DNA from: Escherichia coli
GTDB taxonomy: Bacteria; Pseudomonadota; Gammaproteobacteria; Enterobacterales; Enterobacteriaceae
Assembly (NCBI RefSeq): GCF_011045215.1
Contig: NZ_CP049201.1
DNA length: 64,000 nucleotides
Reading direction: 5' to 3' (one strand)
Shown one piece after another: positions 24,001 through 30,000 of the stretch (the first letter of the stretch is position 1; each line of letters begins with the position of its first letter). Made by a program: the position numbers.

Positions 24001-27000
24001 ACCATTGCCCCATGGGGGAATTACCGGACTGACCCTTCATCCTTCTTCAGTAAAGGGGCGGGGGAAATGGGTTTTTCGTTATGTAAGTCCGGTGACACAA
24101 AAAAGACGTAATGCTGGATTGGGAACTTACCCAGAGGTCAGTATTGCTGAAGCTGCACGTACTGCCCGGATAATGCGAGAGCAACTTGCTGCAGGTGATG
24201 ATCCTCTGGAGATTAAAAAGGCTGAATCTGAGAAAGTCGTTATCCCAACATTTGCCGATGCAGCCAGGCGTGTACATGCAGAACTGTCTCCTGGATGGGA
24301 AAATCCAAAGCATGTAAGGCAGTGGTTATCGACGCTTGAGAATTACGCGTTTCCTCAACTGGGAGCAAAAACGCTGGATTCGATTACGGCTGCGGACGTG
24401 GCAGAAACATTGCGTCCAGTCTGGTTAACCTTGTCAGAAACGGCAAGCCGGGTTAAACAGCGCATTCATGTTGTTATGCAGTGGGGATGGGCGCACGGTT
24501 TTTGTGTGGCAAATCCTGTTGATGTGGTTGACCATTTGCTTCCTCAGCAGACAAGAGGACGTGATGAACACCAACCCGCAATGCCCTGGAGGCAGTTACC
24601 GCTTTTTGTGGCGACCAGTGTGTATAGTGATGAACCTTATAATGTTACCCGCGCACTGTTATTAATGGTGATACTTACAGCAACTCGCTCGGGCGAAGCC
24701 AGGGGAATGCGCTGGGCTGAAATTGATTTTCATAAGCGGGTATGGACTATACCTGCAGAAAGAATGAAAGCTAGGCTACAGCATCGTGTTCCTTTATCCC
24801 GGCAGGCTATTTACATTCTGGAAAATATACGTGGCCTGCATGATGAACTGGTGTTCCCTTCACCCAGAAAGCAGCAGATCCTTTCCGATATGGTGTTGAC
24901 AAGTTTTCTGCGTAAAAAGAAAGCCGTCAGTGACATTCCGGGGCGAGTTGCCACGGCACATGGTTTTCGCTCAACATTCAGGGACTGGTGTAGTGAACAG
25001 GGGTATTCGCGGGATCTGGCGGAAAGGGCGCTCGCTCATACGCTGAAAAATAAGGTTGAGGCGGCATATCATCGCACTGATCTACTGGAGCAGCGTGTAC
25101 CGATGATGCAGGCATGGGCGGATTATGTGATGTCTCAAATTGTGAATAAATAATAGTGAAAATGTATATTGTACGATCATGATTTGATATGTGATCGTGG
25201 CAGTAGTAATTAAGGAACCGCTTTTATGTCAAATGTATTGAGCTGATAATTATCAGATCGTCAGGAAAGCGTATTTTTATAAACAGGGGATTACTCAACA
25301 ATCTCCTGTTTATAAAAAACAATTTGCCTGTTTTAACGTTTCACTCCTGCTGAGACTGAATTATTCCTAGTGCGTCATAAATCAGTCTTCTGCGTAGTTT
25401 ATTGTTTTTATCTGCACCATATAACATAAATATATTTTCAACTTTTTCTTCAGGTGTTCTGAGATAATGGATAAGAAAGGTTATCATTCCAACACAATGG
25501 AATAAAGTGAATCCATCAAACAGGCTTATCAGGTTTCCTTTTTTTTCCCGTGTTGTAAGTATTTTTTCGCGGGTAAGAATATTTGCTAGTTCATGGGGGG
25601 TTGATATATTTCTGCTGTCTATAATGTTATTTATTTTACCAAGGGCTATATCAACTTCCTGTAATAGGTTATTTATCATAGCTGAGTGAATGTTATTGGT
25701 TTCATGTTCCTGACAGTTTATGAACTTATAAATCATTGAGTTATACAGAAATATTACTCTTCCTAATAAATATGTGTTTGTGTCATTTTGAAGACAGGAC
25801 TCTGGGTATTCGTGATCCAGTGAAATAAGGTTAATGGACTCGCCCTGATAAGTCATAAAATAATTGATGTCATTTAATAATGCTCGGATATTTACATGAT
25901 TTTTACTGAATTTTATTTTAAATGCTATCTTTAGTATAGCAAACGCGGCAATGATAAATCCAAAAGGTAATTTCTCATAGTTCAGTTTATTGATGGTGCG
26001 ATGAACACTTTCAGTCTTTCCTGAAGTAAGTTGTATCAAACAGTTAACAAATTCTGTATAGCCATTTAAGACATAATGGCATGAAGAATCTTTTAAAGTG
26101 TTTTCTATGTTTTGTAATGTGACGCCGTTGTTCAATGTATAAATGTAACCGCCAAAGACAATGTTTTCAATCTCAACGACACAATTTATTGTTTTTTGTT
26201 CAGGATAAAGATAAATATCAGAAATACTATAGTCTCGTATTGCGTCAATGGCCTCCCACGATAATGCACTGTCAATTTTCAGTGTATAAAATGGTGAGTT
26301 CTCATTAGGAAAGTAATATATGTGTTTGTTCAGTATATTCATTACATCTATTGGGTTGGTTAAATATAATAACTGGCATTCATATTCTGAAACTTCTCTT
26401 TCGCTTATCAGCATTTTATATAAAGTTGCCAGGGCGCTTGTTAATGAAGTTCGTCTTTCGAAAGCCAGTAATATGGTGAGATAATAACATGCAACTTGAA
26501 TTTTATCTAAGTCAGAAATTATTTTTTCCTTGTCTTCATTACTTAAATAAAGCAGATGTTTACAGGTTTCTTTGCATGTGTTGATAGTTGCGGTAAGTTT
26601 TGTTTTTCCTGGTGTACTGTTTTTGCGAATATTACGAATGAATTCATATACGCCATCAAAGATATCTTTGAAATGCGCATTCGCTGGTGTGTATCCGGAT
26701 AAACATAACTTAATGTAATTTCGCAGATATGTCCTTGCAGCATGATATATATCATCCTCATTATCCGGTATCTGAGTGAGAAAAGAATGAATATGATAGT
26801 AAAATGCCATCTCATTATCCGGGCGATATGTGTTCCTGATGTCGAGTGCGAGAATCATTGGTACAATGTCATTAAAATATTTTTGTTTTATTATTTGATG
26901 TGTTTTGTCTGTAAAAACAGAATAGTGCATTAGCTTAACATAGAGATCTTCATATCTCCTAAATATAACTTTTCGTTGTTCTGTACTCAATACTTGTTCT

Positions 27001-30000
27001 TTATCAATAATGTTTATTAATTCATCAAACATGTCGCCCAGTGAATGTTGATGTGAGGAAAAATTTTTAATATTTCGGATGTCACGGGTATTCTGGTTTT
27101 TAGCCAGAACACCAAAACATGAAAAGACATCATACATTATAGTGATAAAATTATACATAACATTCTCCTTTTATTGCACTATATAAAATTTTAACATTAT
27201 ATCATTTTGCTTTTCTGTTAACTGGTTTTCATTTTTGAATCAATATTTTCTGAACAGGGTAATAGTACACGTATTAACAGATTATGTCAGAAGGCCCCGG
27301 TGATGCCTTCTGACGATAGATTAATGTGATATTCTATTGGTATCTGGAGACCATATGGCAACAGTTACAGTACATTCTCCCCGCTGTAATTCCTATAAAG
27401 TGTACCATTATGATCACAGCACCTCAGATCATGAGCGTTTCCAGTGCTAATCCTGCAAATGTGTGTATTTCAACTGAATTACATCTACGAAACCCGAAAA
27501 CCAGGCATCAAAGAGCAAATTGTTGAAATGGTTCATAACGGAGTCGGGTTCGCGATAGCTCCAGAACGCTGAAGGTGGATATCAACACCGTCATTCTCAC
27601 TTTATAAAACGCTCACCACGCAAAGTAACCACATCTCCAGACGTCAGTGCCGATGTGGCGCTTATCTGCGAACTTGATGAACAATGGAGTTTTGTCGAAA
27701 ACAAAGCTCGTCAGCAGTGGCACTGGTATGCGTATAACACCAAATCTGGAGGTGTGCTGGCTTACACTTTTGGTCCTCGCACTGATGAAACATGTCGTGA
27801 GTTGCCGGAACTCCTGAAGCCATTCTCCACAGGCATGATAACCAGAGACAACCGGAGCAGTTATACCAGAGAAATGCCACAGGATAAGCATCTTGTCGGC
27901 AAGATATTTACCCGGCGCATTGAGCGCAACAATCTGACACTTCGTACTCACATCAAACGACCAGCCCGGAAAACGATTTGCTTTTCACGCTCCCTGGAAA
28001 TTCACGAAAAGCCATTGGTTCATTTATCGAAAACACTGTACTACTGACTGGAGTCATTACCAGGGCCTCTTTTGCTGTTTTTTTACCAATGAATGATAAT
28101 GAGAATCGACAGTGATAAGGAGAAAGTAAAATAACAATAATGCTGTTGTTTTCTATCGTATTGATTTTTAATTATTTATTGTCTTTTTGCTCAGCCCATT
28201 TTTTTACGCAGACAAATTTACCCGGGGAATACAAACTGTAACGACAGTTCACCACACTATGGGGGATAAAATGCCAGATCAATCCGGATACTGCTGGACT
28301 CCTTCACGCATCTTACGGATGCCTGAACTGAGCCAATTGTTAGGTATATCTCGTTCGACAATTTACGAAAAAATGAATCCGTTATCGAAATACTACGATG
28401 CAACCTTCCCCAGGCCGGTACGTCTTGGTAGTGGTTCTGTGGGCTGGCGTTCATCAGCTATTGACGAATGGCTTACTTTACATACTGTACCTGCCAGATC
28501 AGCAGTCAAAGGTGTTAATGACGAAGTGCGACATACGCTTTCTTCAGATATGACCATGAGCAGATAAGTTTTTGTCATCACGTGATCACCTCAGGAGGAA
28601 AAAGAAGCATAAGAACAATTTAGCCAGAAGTTTAATTGATAAACAGAATTTCCAGCATTCATTGTTGAAAGAGCAGCTATTGTCGCTATTGTAGCGGTAA
28701 TTGCTGCTATAACCGAAACGTATTACGAAAAAGGAAGCATTTATGTCTTACATCAAACCGGATATGCCGTATTCAGTATATACGTGACCATCAATGATAG
28801 GGAAGGCAATAATTAAAGCTCAATACAATAAACAAGTACCTCTGACTCTGGTTGCAATGTCAGTATTAACAGCGATGTCAATTGCCTGTCAGAATCAGGT
28901 TGACGTATGCAGCCCCGGAAATTTACGTGGGGCCGTTAATATTTACACTATGGTTCTGGAGAAAGGGAAAAGACCGGGGGAAAGGTATTAGTGAAATAAT
29001 TTCTGGAGGTATTAAGAATGAGAAATATGAATGATATTTCGTGGTAAATAATACAGTCTGCACTGAATTAACCTTATCGGTTTATTAAACATCAGATCTA
29101 CAAATGCTCAGTATTTCTCAGAGCATCAGGTCTGAATAGCAGCTATTTTCGCTATTGTAGCGGGAGTTGCTGCTATTTTACTAACCCATTAATGAAAAGA
29201 GAGGCTTTTATGTGCTTACTTGCACCAGAAAATCCTTATCCGATATATGCACTACCACCGCTGGTGAGAAATGCAATAATTGAAACTCAAAAAAATACAC
29301 AGGCACCTTTGGCTATGGTGGCAACATCCGCATTAACAGCGATCTCAATTGCCTGTCAGAATCAGATTGACGTGTGCAGACCTGGAAATTTACATGGGCC
29401 TGTTAATCTTTACTCTCTGATTCTGGCTGATTCCGGTGAAAGGAAAACGACCGTGGATAAAGTGTTTATGAAAGCATTTTATCTCAGGGATGAAGCCCTG
29501 GCGGAAGAATACGCGAAACTGGTTGAGAATTACAGTACAGAAAAGGAAATATGGGAGCAAAAACAAAAAGCGCTGGAATCAAAATTTCATAAAGAGATTC
29601 GTGCCGGTAAAGATTACAAGGCAACAGAATCAGAGCTTGAAACGCATCTGAATAAATCTCCTGTTCCGCCGCAGATACGTCGAACAATTTTTAATGAGAC
29701 AACGATAGAGGGAATGTTAAAATATTACTCTGATAGCAATCGCTCTTTTGCTCTTGTATCCAGTGAAGGGGGGGTAATTTTTGACAGCCGGGCCATGAGT
29801 AAACTGGGAATTATTAACACTTTGTGGGATGGAGGTTCTCTTTTCATCGACAGGAAATCATCTCCCGGAATTAATTTGAAGGAGCCAAGACTGACGATAT
29901 CGGTGATGATTCAGCCTGATGTTTACCACAAAGGTTTTTGTACGCGAAAAAAAGAACTTGTGAAAACGTCAGGACATCATGCAAGGTTTTTGATGTGTCA

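What the first reader, a model, noticed from the sequence alone, without database searches (positions are those of the whole stretch)
25341..27158. AT-rich 605-aa orphan gene as first cargo next to the island integrase
A long intact ORF with very low GC, no catalytic motif I can recognise, and its own transcriptional unit sits immediately after the P4-type integrase and before an IS1. That is a typical position for anti-phage or other accessory cargo in integrative islands. I cannot assign it to any family from sequence inspection.
Basis: inference. Interest (0 to 1): 0.6.

Follow-up and report, generated by a model that had tools for sequence, protein, structure and literature searches.

The report
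Hypervariable partner gene of island AlpA switch
The AT-rich 605-codon gene is real and makes protein, but it is not loose cargo beside the integrase: it belongs to an uncharacterised, fast-diverging, all-helical protein family that always sits back-to-back with the alpA excision/replication genes of enterobacterial genomic islands, so it probably controls or guards that module.

Summary
An intact 605-aa ORF lies at 25341-27158 (-), at 32% GC, between a P4-type integrase and an IS1-family element.

- **Not an orphan.** Exhaustive HMM and fold searches find full-length relatives (21-35% identity) across Enterobacterales. Remoter structural relatives occur in Aeromonas and Burkholderia. All are unannotated.
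- **Not placed by the integrase.** In every relative's locus examined, the gene is divergently adjacent to alpA -> DUF3987 (YfjI) -> YfjJ/Gp2. Its orientation to the integrase varies.
- **Conserved surroundings.** In most lineages the ~100-bp intergenic region is highly conserved and a GCTAC palindrome follows the stop codon.
- **Hypervariable coding sequence.** Two loci share 91-95% identical AlpA, YfjI and YfjJ but only 35% identical copies of this protein.
- **No known family or fold.** There is no match in Pfam, NCBIfam, PADLOC or PHROGs. A confident AlphaFold model (pLDDT 84) has no PDB or viral fold match.

Best guess (about 0.35) is a trans-acting control or sensor protein of the island's AlpA switch. 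The main rival (about 0.3) is a single-gene anti-phage protein in a fixed slot.

The parts
25341..27158 (-). [not shown]
   Evidence: ORF. Present in 1036/5426 E. coli genomes. Homolog family. AF2 model pLDDT 83.6. dN/dS 0.20. Phosphopeptides Y204/Y291.
27165..27204 (-). Translation and transcription signals of X: SD AAGGAG at 27170-27165 and an extended -10 TGATATAAT at 27204-27196.
   Evidence: Read directly from the sequence. Promoter function is inferred, not tested; the generic scan of this AT-rich region is not above chance.
25274..25318 (.). Inverted repeat (19-nt arms, 7-nt loop) between the convergent integrase and X, flanked by A/T runs on both sides. It looks like a bidirectional terminator.
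   Evidence: repeat I1.
25539..25600 (-). Homopolymer tracts inside the 3' part of X (A8 at 25539-25546, C6 at 25595-25600). Rare 541-546-aa alleles are frameshifted in or immediately beside these tracts.
27300..28063 (.). Degenerate IS1-family element inserted between X and alpA. It splits what is a ~100-bp shared regulatory region in relatives.
   Evidence: Terminal repeats read. Annotated as a frameshifted IS1 transposase. The window aligns collinearly with the 89%-identical locus L020 across this stretch, so the insertion appears old.
28271..28567 (+). alpA-type helix-turn-helix gene (AlpA/Rox/Vis-like excision regulator). It is the conserved divergent partner of X.
   Evidence: It is 54-80% identical to the AlpA next to every other X homolog (98% in the near-identical allele L020).
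29192..30643 (+). yfjI (DUF3987, the putative primase/helicase of AlpA-type elements).
   Evidence: It is used as the 'primase' marker in the PICMI paper.
31582..32145 (+). yfjJ / inovirus Gp2-type gene, the last gene of the four-gene module.
   Evidence: ORF; the colinear gene in Nissle and O157 is annotated inovirus-type Gp2. The window ORF itself was not scanned against a family library.
29135..29177 (.). Imperfect palindrome rich in GCTA/TAGC, just upstream of yfjI. It resembles the GCTAC palindrome that follows X in other lineages.
   Evidence: repeat I2; compare.
23951..25153 (+). P4-family tyrosine integrase of the serW/serX island.
   Evidence: PMC3064760.
23776..23789 (.). Left island border: the 14-bp direct repeat TGGCGGTGAGGGGG, which is the last 14 bp of tRNA-Ser serW.
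   Evidence: Sequence. It is the same repeat described for OI-43/OI-48 in PMC3064760.

Best explanation
Shown: X is a real, expressed protein-coding gene of a previously undescribed all-alpha family. It is a fixed component of a four-gene island backbone module, X <-> alpA -> DUF3987 (YfjI) -> YfjJ/Gp2. It has conserved N- and C-terminal domains and a hypervariable centre, and its variable body is exchanged between otherwise near-identical modules.

Inferred: X is a trans-acting control or sensor protein of the island's AlpA-driven excision/replication switch. In the ancestral arrangement, X and alpA are read from overlapping back-to-back promoters in a ~100-bp region that is conserved across genera, so expression of one opposes the other. 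X would keep the alpA-primase-Gp2 operon quiet until a signal from a helper phage or other mobile element releases it. The hypervariable centre would set which signal is recognised. This is the logic of SaPI Stl/Str and of the LuxR/AlpA pair of PIME1 elements, carried out by an unrelated protein.

In this window an old IS1 insertion has separated the two promoters, and X now has its own extended -10 promoter.
For: 1. Synteny. X homologs are divergently adjacent to alpA-DUF3987(-YfjJ) in every locus examined. The loci reached through the protein cover 10 lineages together with the window. All 12 Enterobacterales loci from an AlpA-seeded scan of species-representative genomes have X, against 0 of 54 loci from other taxa.
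2. Orientation to the integrase flips. The link is therefore to alpA, not to int.
3. The X-alpA intergenic region is far better conserved than X. The putative X -10 (TGAGATACT on the X strand) lies inside the spacer of the putative alpA promoter (TTGACG...TATGAG).
4. X varies independently of the backbone. Between L016 and L017, AlpA is 95%, YfjI 91% and YfjJ 91% identical, but X is 35%. Nucleotide identity of 92% collapses at about codon 17 of X and returns only at a 36-bp palindrome after the stop. Conversely, the window's YfjI is 89% identical to that of L012, where both alpA (25%) and X (unrelated) differ.
5. Conserved ends and a variable, indel-rich centre. There are no invariant catalytic-type residues.
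6. Purifying selection (omega 0.20). The window and L020 align collinearly at 89% across the IS1 region, which suggests X stayed under selection after the insertion.
7. Protein detected in EHEC.
8. Natural fusion of an IS481-transposase-derived N-terminal region to the X fold, again next to alpA-DUF3987. AFDB also lists a 930-aa E. coli 'helix-turn-helix domain-containing' protein with this fold.
9. Precedents. In PIME1 a luxR gene divergent from alpA is required, with alpA, for excision. How alpA is induced is stated as an open question for PICMI satellites.
Against: - No DNA-binding domain is detectable in X: Pfam finds nothing even at E<=10, hhalign against a GerE HTH is negative, and pI is near neutral and variable.
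- If X bound the conserved intergenic DNA, part of X should be as conserved as that DNA. Only moderate N- and C-terminal conservation is seen.
- The promoter overlap is read by eye from a consensus and is untested.
- Related islands appear to work without X. The ORF table of the SRL PAI (integrase 99% identical) lists the YfjI-like orf2 with no 605-aa gene near int, and from memory it excises with Int plus Rox. K-12 CP4-57 and L012 have unrelated genes in the same slot.
- In this window IS1 has already uncoupled the promoters, yet X is still maintained. That fits a function independent of alpA equally well.
- Hypervariability and the defence-rich neighbourhoods fit the defence rival equally well.
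Confidence: 0.35

Rival explanations
1. X is a single-gene anti-phage (or anti-mobile-element) protein that sits in a fixed slot of the island backbone. Its conserved domains would carry the effector or scaffold function. The hypervariable centre would recognise a phage protein, and alleles would be exchanged under an arms race.
For: - Allelic replacement inside a 91-95% identical backbone, and at least three roughly 30%-identical allele classes within E. coli alone.
- Islands with the module are rich in defence cargo: Zorya I, Gabija and a type I RM system, Abi_alpha/Abi_C, SLATT and GAP1/DO-GTPase genes.
- The PICMI satellite carries a defence gene, and PIME elements carry immune systems in their accessory regions.
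- X is kept intact and under selection even though IS1 has cut it off from alpA.
- It is monocistronic with its own promoter-like signals.
Against: - No PADLOC model matches X or eight homologs. There is no enzymatic or pore-type domain and no clear membrane segments.
- No relatives occur in phage genomes or among viral structures.
- Known variable defence cargo in these islands changes family from locus to locus. This slot keeps the same family across more than ten genera, next to a conserved regulatory region, which is unusual for cargo.
- X decays together with the primase gene in some lineages.
Confidence: 0.3
2. X is an accessory protein of the module's replication or mobilisation machinery. 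It would act with the DUF3987 primase/helicase and the Gp2-like initiator at the conserved GCTAC palindrome beside it, for example as an origin-binding, loading or partition-like factor.
For: - A palindrome GCTAC(A/G)nnnGCTAC-nnnn-GTAGCnnn(T/C)GTAGC lies about 20-320 nt after the X stop in most lineages, with 0 expected by chance.
- Related GCTA palindromes lie beside DUF3987 genes in loci that lack X (L040, L042; L012) and just upstream of yfjI in the window.
- X is strictly linked to the primase/Gp2 genes.
Against: - Core replication factors are not normally the most variable gene of a module (35% against 91-95%).
- Modules of the same general type lack X.
- No nucleotide-binding or DNA-binding motif is found.
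- In the window lineage the palindrome is not next to X.
Confidence: 0.15
3. One reading: X is ordinary variable accessory cargo whose position is set by the integrase end of the island.
For: In this window, in Nissle 1917 and in O157, it is the first gene after the integrase. It is AT-rich like much horizontally acquired cargo.
Against: - In most other lineages X is several genes away from the integrase, with true cargo such as Gabija or Abi genes between int and the module.
- In Providencia no integrase was called within about 8 kb on either side of X.
- The conserved neighbour is alpA.
Confidence: 0.07
4. X is a decaying or functionless open frame. It might persist by hitch-hiking, or its AT-rich DNA rather than its protein might matter, for example as a binding platform for the nucleoid silencer H-NS.
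For: - X is the most AT-rich gene of the module in all 10 X-family loci tabulated.
- It is pseudogenised in 4 of 12 species-representative loci.
- Homopolymer frameshift alleles exist.
Against: - dN/dS is 0.20.
- Full-length conservation of architecture at 21-35% identity across genera.
- A confident co-evolution-driven AF2 model.
- 8897 full-length sequences against a few truncated ones.
- Protein detected by mass spectrometry.
Confidence: 0.03

Closest known systems
SaPI master repressor Stl and the stl/str divergent switch of staphylococcal pathogenicity islands (comparison from established knowledge, not tested here)
   Same: - Gene order is parallel: integrase, then a gene divergent from the excision/primase/initiator operon.
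- Here that operon is alpA = excision factor, YfjI = primase, YfjJ = Gp2-type initiator.
- The divergent gene is far more variable than the rest of the module.
- The two genes share a short regulatory region.
   Different: - No sequence or fold similarity, and no recognisable HTH.
- X is about 600 aa, against about 250-270 aa for Stl.
- Repression, DNA binding and derepression by a phage protein are all untested.
- Many host islands are 40-90 kb pathogenicity islands, not small capsid-packaged satellites.
PIME1 integrative mobilizable elements: LuxR-family regulator divergent from alpA (bioRxiv 10.64898/2026.01.12.698999)
   Same: A gene divergently oriented to alpA in the regulatory region of an int-alpA-replicase island. 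In PIME1 both luxR and alpA are needed for excision, and the authors suggest they sense the helper element.
   Different: - X has no LuxR/GerE domain.
- The replication genes differ: repA plus trb/tra genes in PIMEs, DUF3987 plus Gp2-type here.
- No experiment exists for X.
E. coli K-12 CP4-57: intA - yfjH - alpA - yfjI - yfjJ
   Same: The architecture and orientation are identical to the window: int>, <slot gene, alpA>, yfjI>, yfjJ>. YfjI is 41% and AlpA 54% identical to the window's. The slot gene is likewise the most AT-rich.
   Different: YfjH (318 aa, PHROG 19089, function unknown) shows no similarity to X (hhalign probability 0.06%).
PICMI satellites of Vibrionaceae: the iolg/icg genes between int and alpA (PMC10803314)
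   Same: Elements defined by int, alpA and a DUF3987-type primase. Between int and alpA they carry a gene falling into 13 unrelated families of unknown function, and iolg is required for excision.
   Different: iolg overlaps int and is co-oriented with it. X is convergent with int here and unlinked to int elsewhere. X is much larger, and no homology was tested or expected.
RRNPP/TPR-type receptors (NprR, RapI), the best PDB fold hits

Membership tests
Known anti-phage defence systems (PADLOC-DB v2.0.0) | Significant match of the protein to a model of a known or candidate defence protein | tested here: not met
   0 families at E<=1 for X and 0 at E<=0.1 for eight diverse homologs. The library dates from 2023, so later systems are not covered.
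Known anti-phage defence systems (PADLOC-DB v2.0.0) | Demonstrated protection against phage | not testable with these tools
   Needs a plaque or liquid infection assay.
Stl-type island master repressors | Gene divergently transcribed from the excision/replication operon, with a shared control region | tested here: met
   Seen at every locus examined. The intergenic region is conserved, with overlapping promoter-like elements. In the window itself it is split by IS1.
Stl-type island master repressors | N-terminal helix-turn-helix DNA-binding domain | tested here: not met
   No Pfam domain at E<=10 in X, and none at E<=0.001 in any of 18 members. Only rare fusion variants carry a transposase-derived N-terminal region.
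Stl-type island master repressors | Represses the operon and is released by a helper-phage protein | not testable with these tools
   Needs genetics and biochemistry.
LuxR-family regulator of PIME1 elements | C-terminal LuxR/GerE HTH | tested here: not met
   hhalign of the family profile against GerE gives probability 0.24%. There is no Pfam GerE hit.
YfjH family (PHROG 19089), occupant of the same slot in CP4-57 | Sequence or profile similarity | tested here: not met
   hhalign probability 0.06%. X has no significant PHROG hit, while YfjH hits phrog_19089 at 1e-112.
TPR/RRNPP receptors | Significant fold match over the receptor domain | tested here: inconclusive
   [not shown]
New family defined here: 'X', the AlpA-divergent all-alpha protein of Enterobacterales islands | Full-length homology (~580-670 aa) with the conserved motifs NFSxHQxFF, FYKYEQLYN, LPxGY...ALKIKL, NNxTIMRSIKLYN and KILTxRE | tested here: met
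   phmmer E-values from 1e-70 to 1e-30 for 12 full-length relatives. Alignments. AFDB models of relatives give TM 0.81-0.88.
New family defined here: 'X', the AlpA-divergent all-alpha protein of Enterobacterales islands | Divergent adjacency to alpA-DUF3987 | tested here: met
   Window: X at 25341-27158 (-), alpA at 28271-28567 (+), yfjI at 29192-30643 (+), with an IS1-family element between X and alpA.

The most novel reading that the evidence does not exclude
The X family is a new class of helper-sensing master regulator for AlpA-controlled genomic islands of Enterobacterales, functionally analogous to SaPI Stl but with a new fold. Its exchangeable central domain would determine which phage or mobile-element protein triggers excision and replication of islands such as O157 OI-43/48 and Nissle GEI I. 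The conserved GCTAC palindrome would mark the module's origin.
Probability: 0.2. Interest if true: 0.8.

Novelty: new variant of a known kind. Interest (0 to 1): 0.55.

Why it matters
The gene is in about a fifth of complete E. coli genomes. That includes the tellurite/urease/Iha islands OI-43/48 of O157:H7 and the serX island of the probiotic Nissle 1917. It has never been given a family, fold or function.

Three findings turn an anonymous hypothetical protein into a defined experimental target:
- it is the constant, rapidly exchanged partner of the alpA-primase-Gp2 module;
- a regulatory region conserved across genera lies on one side of it;
- a conserved palindrome lies on the other side.

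How alpA-type islands and satellites sense their inducer is an open question, stated explicitly for PICMI and raised for PIMEs. X is a concrete candidate for that missing component in Enterobacterales. If it is instead a defence protein, it would be a new single-gene system with a new fold and an unusual fixed location. Either way it bears on the stability and spread of virulence and defence islands.

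Tried and rejected
**Family libraries.** PADLOC, NCBIfam, PHROGs and Pfam on X gave nothing. The only marginal lines (a sigma-factor subfamily at E 0.024, far below its cut-off; a PHROG at E 0.4) were dismissed. The same libraries on homologs, and Pfam on each alignment member, gave nothing below E 0.001.

**Structure.**
- AlphaFold on the shallow, near-identical alignment gave pLDDT 34 and was unusable. It was replaced by the 18-sequence alignment.
- PDB sequence-profile search: nothing.
- BFVD viral structures: nothing.

**Searches for more relatives.**
- The word-index profile search found no new distant relatives. The exhaustive phmmer search was needed.
- The search for related loci with the X alignment failed, because no stretch was conserved enough. 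The AlpA alignment was used instead.
- tblastn against phage records gave no match. The four 'plasmid' hits look like chromosomal pieces, one record being 4.8 Mb.

**Specific ideas tested and dropped.**
- Homology of X to YfjH or to the 543-aa slot gene of L012: none.
- A LuxR/GerE-like C-terminus, prompted by the 'LTxRE' motif: rejected.
- A membrane protein, prompted by some UniProt names: only two marginal hydrophobic helices, both buried in the confident model.
- Phase variation at the A8/C6 tracts: frameshift alleles exist but are singletons against 8897 full-length sequences. They are as likely to be assembly errors or sporadic mutations.

**Other.**
- tRNA scan: none in the window. The intact serW must lie beyond the window's right end, because the island is inserted at its 3' end.
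- Literature searches by accession or locus tag found only the phosphoproteome paper and the OI-43/48 papers.

Full report
**1. The observation**

GC falls to 0.29-0.34 across it, against 0.45-0.55 in clpA and the integrase. The gene is 0.323 and the integrase 0.488.

- To the left are clpA (20902-23193), two CRISPR-DR4 repeats and an RtT-like element.
- Next comes the 14-bp sequence TGGCGGTGAGGGGG at 23776-23789. It is identical to the direct repeat described as flanking O-islands 43/48 at serW/serX in O157:H7 (PMC3064760).
- The P4-family integrase follows (23951-25153, +). The integrase and the ORF converge on a 19-nt-arm hairpin at 25274-25318.
- The ORF has an AAGGAG Shine-Dalgarno 6 nt before the ATG and a perfect extended -10 (TGATATAAT) about 40 nt upstream of the ATG.
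- Upstream of that lies a degenerate IS1-family element, about 27300-28063.

So the description is correct.

**2. It is a real gene**

- The same ORF is present in 1036 of 5426 complete E. coli genomes, 929 of them at >=99% identity. It is always annotated 'hypothetical protein'.
- The 90%-identity protein cluster holds 8897 sequences at full length. The 541-546-aa variants are singletons, frameshifted in or beside a C6 or an A8 tract.
- Against an allele 7% diverged at the DNA level (L020), dS = 0.19 and dN = 0.039, so omega = 0.20. The neighbouring integrase gives 0.05.
- The two loci align collinearly at 89% across the IS1 region. The insertion therefore appears to predate their split, and X has been kept under selection since.

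**3. It is not an orphan, but the family is unknown**

The word-indexed search found only >=91% identical E. coli sequences. An exhaustive phmmer search of 1.84 billion cluster representatives found 33 hits. They include a dozen full-length proteins of 568-663 aa at 27-35% identity, with E-values from 1e-70 to 1e-30.

All named members are 'hypothetical'. They come from E. coli (two further allele classes), Citrobacter, Klebsiella, Yersinia, Hafnia, Kluyvera, Dickeya, Edwardsiella, Providencia, Proteus and Morganella.

Pfam, NCBIfam, PADLOC and PHROGs give nothing significant for X or its relatives, and a PDB sequence-profile search gives nothing.

The structure predictions were as follows.
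- With the 18-sequence alignment, AlphaFold2 gives a confident all-helical model: mean pLDDT 83.6, pTM 0.83. The shallow alignment had given pLDDT 34.
- The viral structure library gives nothing.
- AFDB50 returns only uncharacterised proteins. These are the same enterobacterial family (TM 0.81-0.88), plus remoter relatives in Aeromonas, Burkholderia and Tolumonas, plus a 930-aa E. coli 'helix-turn-helix domain-containing' protein.
- No phage genome encodes a relative.

The family alignment has very few invariant residues (I415, N473, L499, K508; nearly invariant L397, P398, G400, N461, Y472) and no catalytic-looking set. Residues 1-160 and 380-560 are conserved. Residues about 200-360 are variable and full of indels.

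**4. The conserved neighbour is alpA, not the integrase**

I looked up the genomic context of nine diverged homologs. In every case the gene is divergently adjacent, about 60-200 bp away, to an AlpA-family gene followed by a DUF3987 (YfjI) gene. Wherever the sequence extends far enough, a YagK/YfjJ (inovirus Gp2-type) gene follows.

| Source |
|---|
| Providencia |
| E. coli, 615-aa type |
| Yersinia ruckeri |
| E. coli GF60 |
| Edwardsiella (alpA uncalled but present) |
| Morganella |
| Two further lineages |
| 91% allele |
| 866-aa relative at E = 2e-4 |

In most of these the integrase is several genes away, with cargo between int and yfjJ, such as Gabija-type genes or Abi_alpha/Abi_C genes. 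The module points the other way than it does in the window.

The window arrangement (int>, <X, alpA>, yfjI>, yfjJ>) is that of K-12 CP4-57. There the slot is held by the unrelated yfjH.

As an independent test I seeded a scan of one genome per species with an AlpA alignment.
- All 12 Enterobacterales loci have an X-family gene divergently upstream and DUF3987 downstream. X is pseudogenised in four of them, and in three of those the primase gene is also fragmented or absent.
- None of 54 loci from other taxa has one.
- The seed patterns came from X-linked AlpAs. The scan therefore shows that this AlpA subfamily always comes with X, not that all AlpA modules do.

**5. Conserved surroundings, hypervariable gene**

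Among X-linked loci, AlpA is 50-98% identical while X is 21-35%.

The sharpest case is L016 versus L017.
- AlpA is 95%, YfjI 91% and YfjJ 91% identical, but X is 35%.
- At the DNA level, 92% identity runs from yfjJ through alpA and the intergenic region into about codon 17 of X, then collapses.
- It reappears only as a perfect 36-bp palindrome just after the stop codon.

That palindrome, GCTAC(A/G)nnnGCTAC-nnnn-GTAGCnnn(T/C)GTAGC, lies about 20-320 nt after the X stop in nearly all lineages, with none expected by chance. Related GCTA palindromes sit next to DUF3987 genes in loci without X (L012, L040 and L042). An imperfect one lies just upstream of yfjI in the window (29135-29177).

The converse case also occurs. 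The window's YfjI is 89% identical to that of L012, where alpA (25%) and the slot gene (unrelated, 543 aa) are both different. So X, and sometimes X together with alpA, is exchanged within a stable backbone.

X is also the most AT-rich gene of the module in every X-family locus tabulated.

**6. The shared control region**

The roughly 100 bp between the X and alpA start codons align well across genera whose X proteins are 25-35% identical.
- The consensus, read on the alpA strand, is: X start codon, CCCTCC (the complement of X's Shine-Dalgarno), GGTTGGTTTCCGTTTTTTGACGGGGACAGTATCTCAGATGGTATGAGA, then AGGAG and the alpA ATG.
- Read by eye, a -35-like TTGACG and a -10-like TATGAG could serve alpA. 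On the other strand, TGAGATACT (an extended -10-like element for X) falls inside that spacer.
- If this is right, the two promoters overlap back to back and would compete. This is inference from sequence only.

In the window lineage the IS1-family element has been inserted into this region. About 207 bp remain on the alpA side, with partial similarity to the consensus, and 141 bp on the X side, with X's own promoter-like signals.

**7. What it most likely does**

What is shown:
- X is an expressed, selected protein with a new helical fold.
- It is a constant but rapidly exchanged member of the alpA-primase-Gp2 module.
- It has conserved ends and a variable centre.
- A conserved regulatory region flanks it on one side and a conserved palindrome on the other.

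What is inferred is the function. I favour, at about 0.35, a trans-acting control or sensor protein of the AlpA switch.
- The layout parallels the SaPI stl/str switch: a variable gene divergent from the excision-primase-initiator operon.
- It also parallels PIME1 elements. There a luxR gene divergent from alpA is required, with alpA, for excision, and the authors suggest it senses the helper element.
- How alpA is switched on is an explicit open question for PICMI satellites.
- A natural fusion supports a DNA-associated role, though only weakly. It joins an IS481-transposase-derived N-terminal region (NCBIfam E = 2.7e-12, below the curated cut-off) to the X fold, again next to alpA-DUF3987.

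Against this reading:
- X has no detectable DNA-binding domain.
- Sister islands seem to manage without it. The SRL PAI ORF table lists the YfjI-like orf2 with no 605-aa gene near int.
- X is maintained in this lineage although IS1 has uncoupled it from alpA.

The main rival, at about 0.3, is a single-gene anti-phage protein in a fixed slot. Hypervariability, the defence-rich islands (Zorya, Gabija, Abi, RM) and retention after the IS1 insertion all fit it. There is no PADLOC match, no effector domain, and the family constancy of the slot is unlike ordinary cargo.

A replication or transfer accessory acting at the palindrome gets about 0.15. Literal integrase-end cargo gets about 0.07, and a functionless ORF about 0.03.

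**8. Comparison with known systems, and verdict**

X fails the testable membership criteria of the following:
- known defence families;
- Stl-type repressors (no HTH);
- LuxR regulators (no GerE domain);
- YfjH;
- TPR receptors, for which the result is inconclusive at best.

What it shares with Stl and with the PIME1 LuxR is position and evolutionary behaviour, not ancestry. I therefore class it as a new variant of a known kind: a new protein family in the regulatory or specificity slot of AlpA-type islands.

It is of moderate to high interest. It is widespread, including in O157 and Nissle islands, it has a new fold, and the hypotheses are directly testable. Its function remains unproven.

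Noticed in passing
L002/L003 9798-9827; L005 9874-9903; L009 9842-9871 and 10149-10179; L013 15252-15283; L015 8838-8867; L022 5150-5179; L024-L034 and L052; variant in L016 9019-9054 and L017 8925-8960: A conserved perfect palindrome, GCTAC(A/G)nnnGCTAC-nnnn-GTAGCnnn(T/C)GTAGC, lies about 20-320 nt after the stop of X in almost every lineage, although the flanking DNA is otherwise unalignable. It has no consistent T-run, so it is not just a terminator. It may be an origin or a protein-binding site of the DUF3987/Gp2 module.
   Followed up: partly
window 29135-29177; L012 7005-7033; L040 7906; L042 5386: Related GCTA...TAGC palindromes lie directly beside DUF3987 genes in modules that lack X or have it elsewhere. 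That ties the motif to the primase gene rather than to X.
   Followed up: partly
window 23407-23434, 23467-23494, plus a degenerate third copy near 23527-23548: Two CRISPR-DR4 (type I-F) repeats and a partial third lie between clpA and the island border. No cas genes were seen between clpA and the island border in the ORF list for this stretch. This looks like a residual CRISPR array.
   Followed up: no
window 23598-23733 (-) and 23776-23789: An RtT-like element begins with the 3' end of tRNA-Ser, and the terminator-plus-tRNA-end segment is duplicated. The second copy ends in the 14-bp island direct repeat. ARAGORN finds no tRNA in the whole 64-kb window, so the intact serW lies beyond the right end and the island is longer than 40 kb.
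   Followed up: partly
window 37027-49121: Large ORFs of 579, 3106 and 161 aa in a row. By size and order they look like a cdiB-cdiA-cdiI contact-dependent inhibition locus inside the same island. They were not analysed.
   Followed up: no
window 25539-25546 and 25595-25600: A8 and C6 tracts lie in the last fifth of X. Rare alleles of 541-546 aa are frameshifted in or immediately beside these tracts. Some come from complete genomes, so real slippage or assembly error cannot be told apart.
   Followed up: partly
window 28672-29002 versus 29135-29473: The stretch after alpA is about 70% similar to the start of yfjI, via cross-matches to L020. RefSeq annotates a short 'DUF3987 domain-containing' ORF there in O157. 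This appears to be a partial duplication of the 5' end of yfjI.
   Followed up: no
L022 2467-5067 (protein P0052): An 866-aa relative of X carries an N-terminal ~310-aa extension derived from an IS481-family transposase (residues 35-185 match NF033577). It has no separate start codon for the X part and is found on two contigs. It is a natural fusion of a domesticated transposase region to the X fold.
   Followed up: partly
L090 16400-19818 (E. coli O157:H7 17B6-2): In O157 the island with the same int-X-IS1-alpA-yfjI-yfjJ head carries type I Zorya genes (zorC and zorD are annotated within the fetched stretch) right after the module.
   Followed up: no
L014 4645-5601 (K-12 yfjH); L012 4415-6046: The slot divergent from alpA holds unrelated, equally AT-rich genes of unknown function in other islands: yfjH (318 aa) and a 543-aa protein. 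The slot itself may therefore be a general feature of AlpA-type modules.
   Followed up: partly
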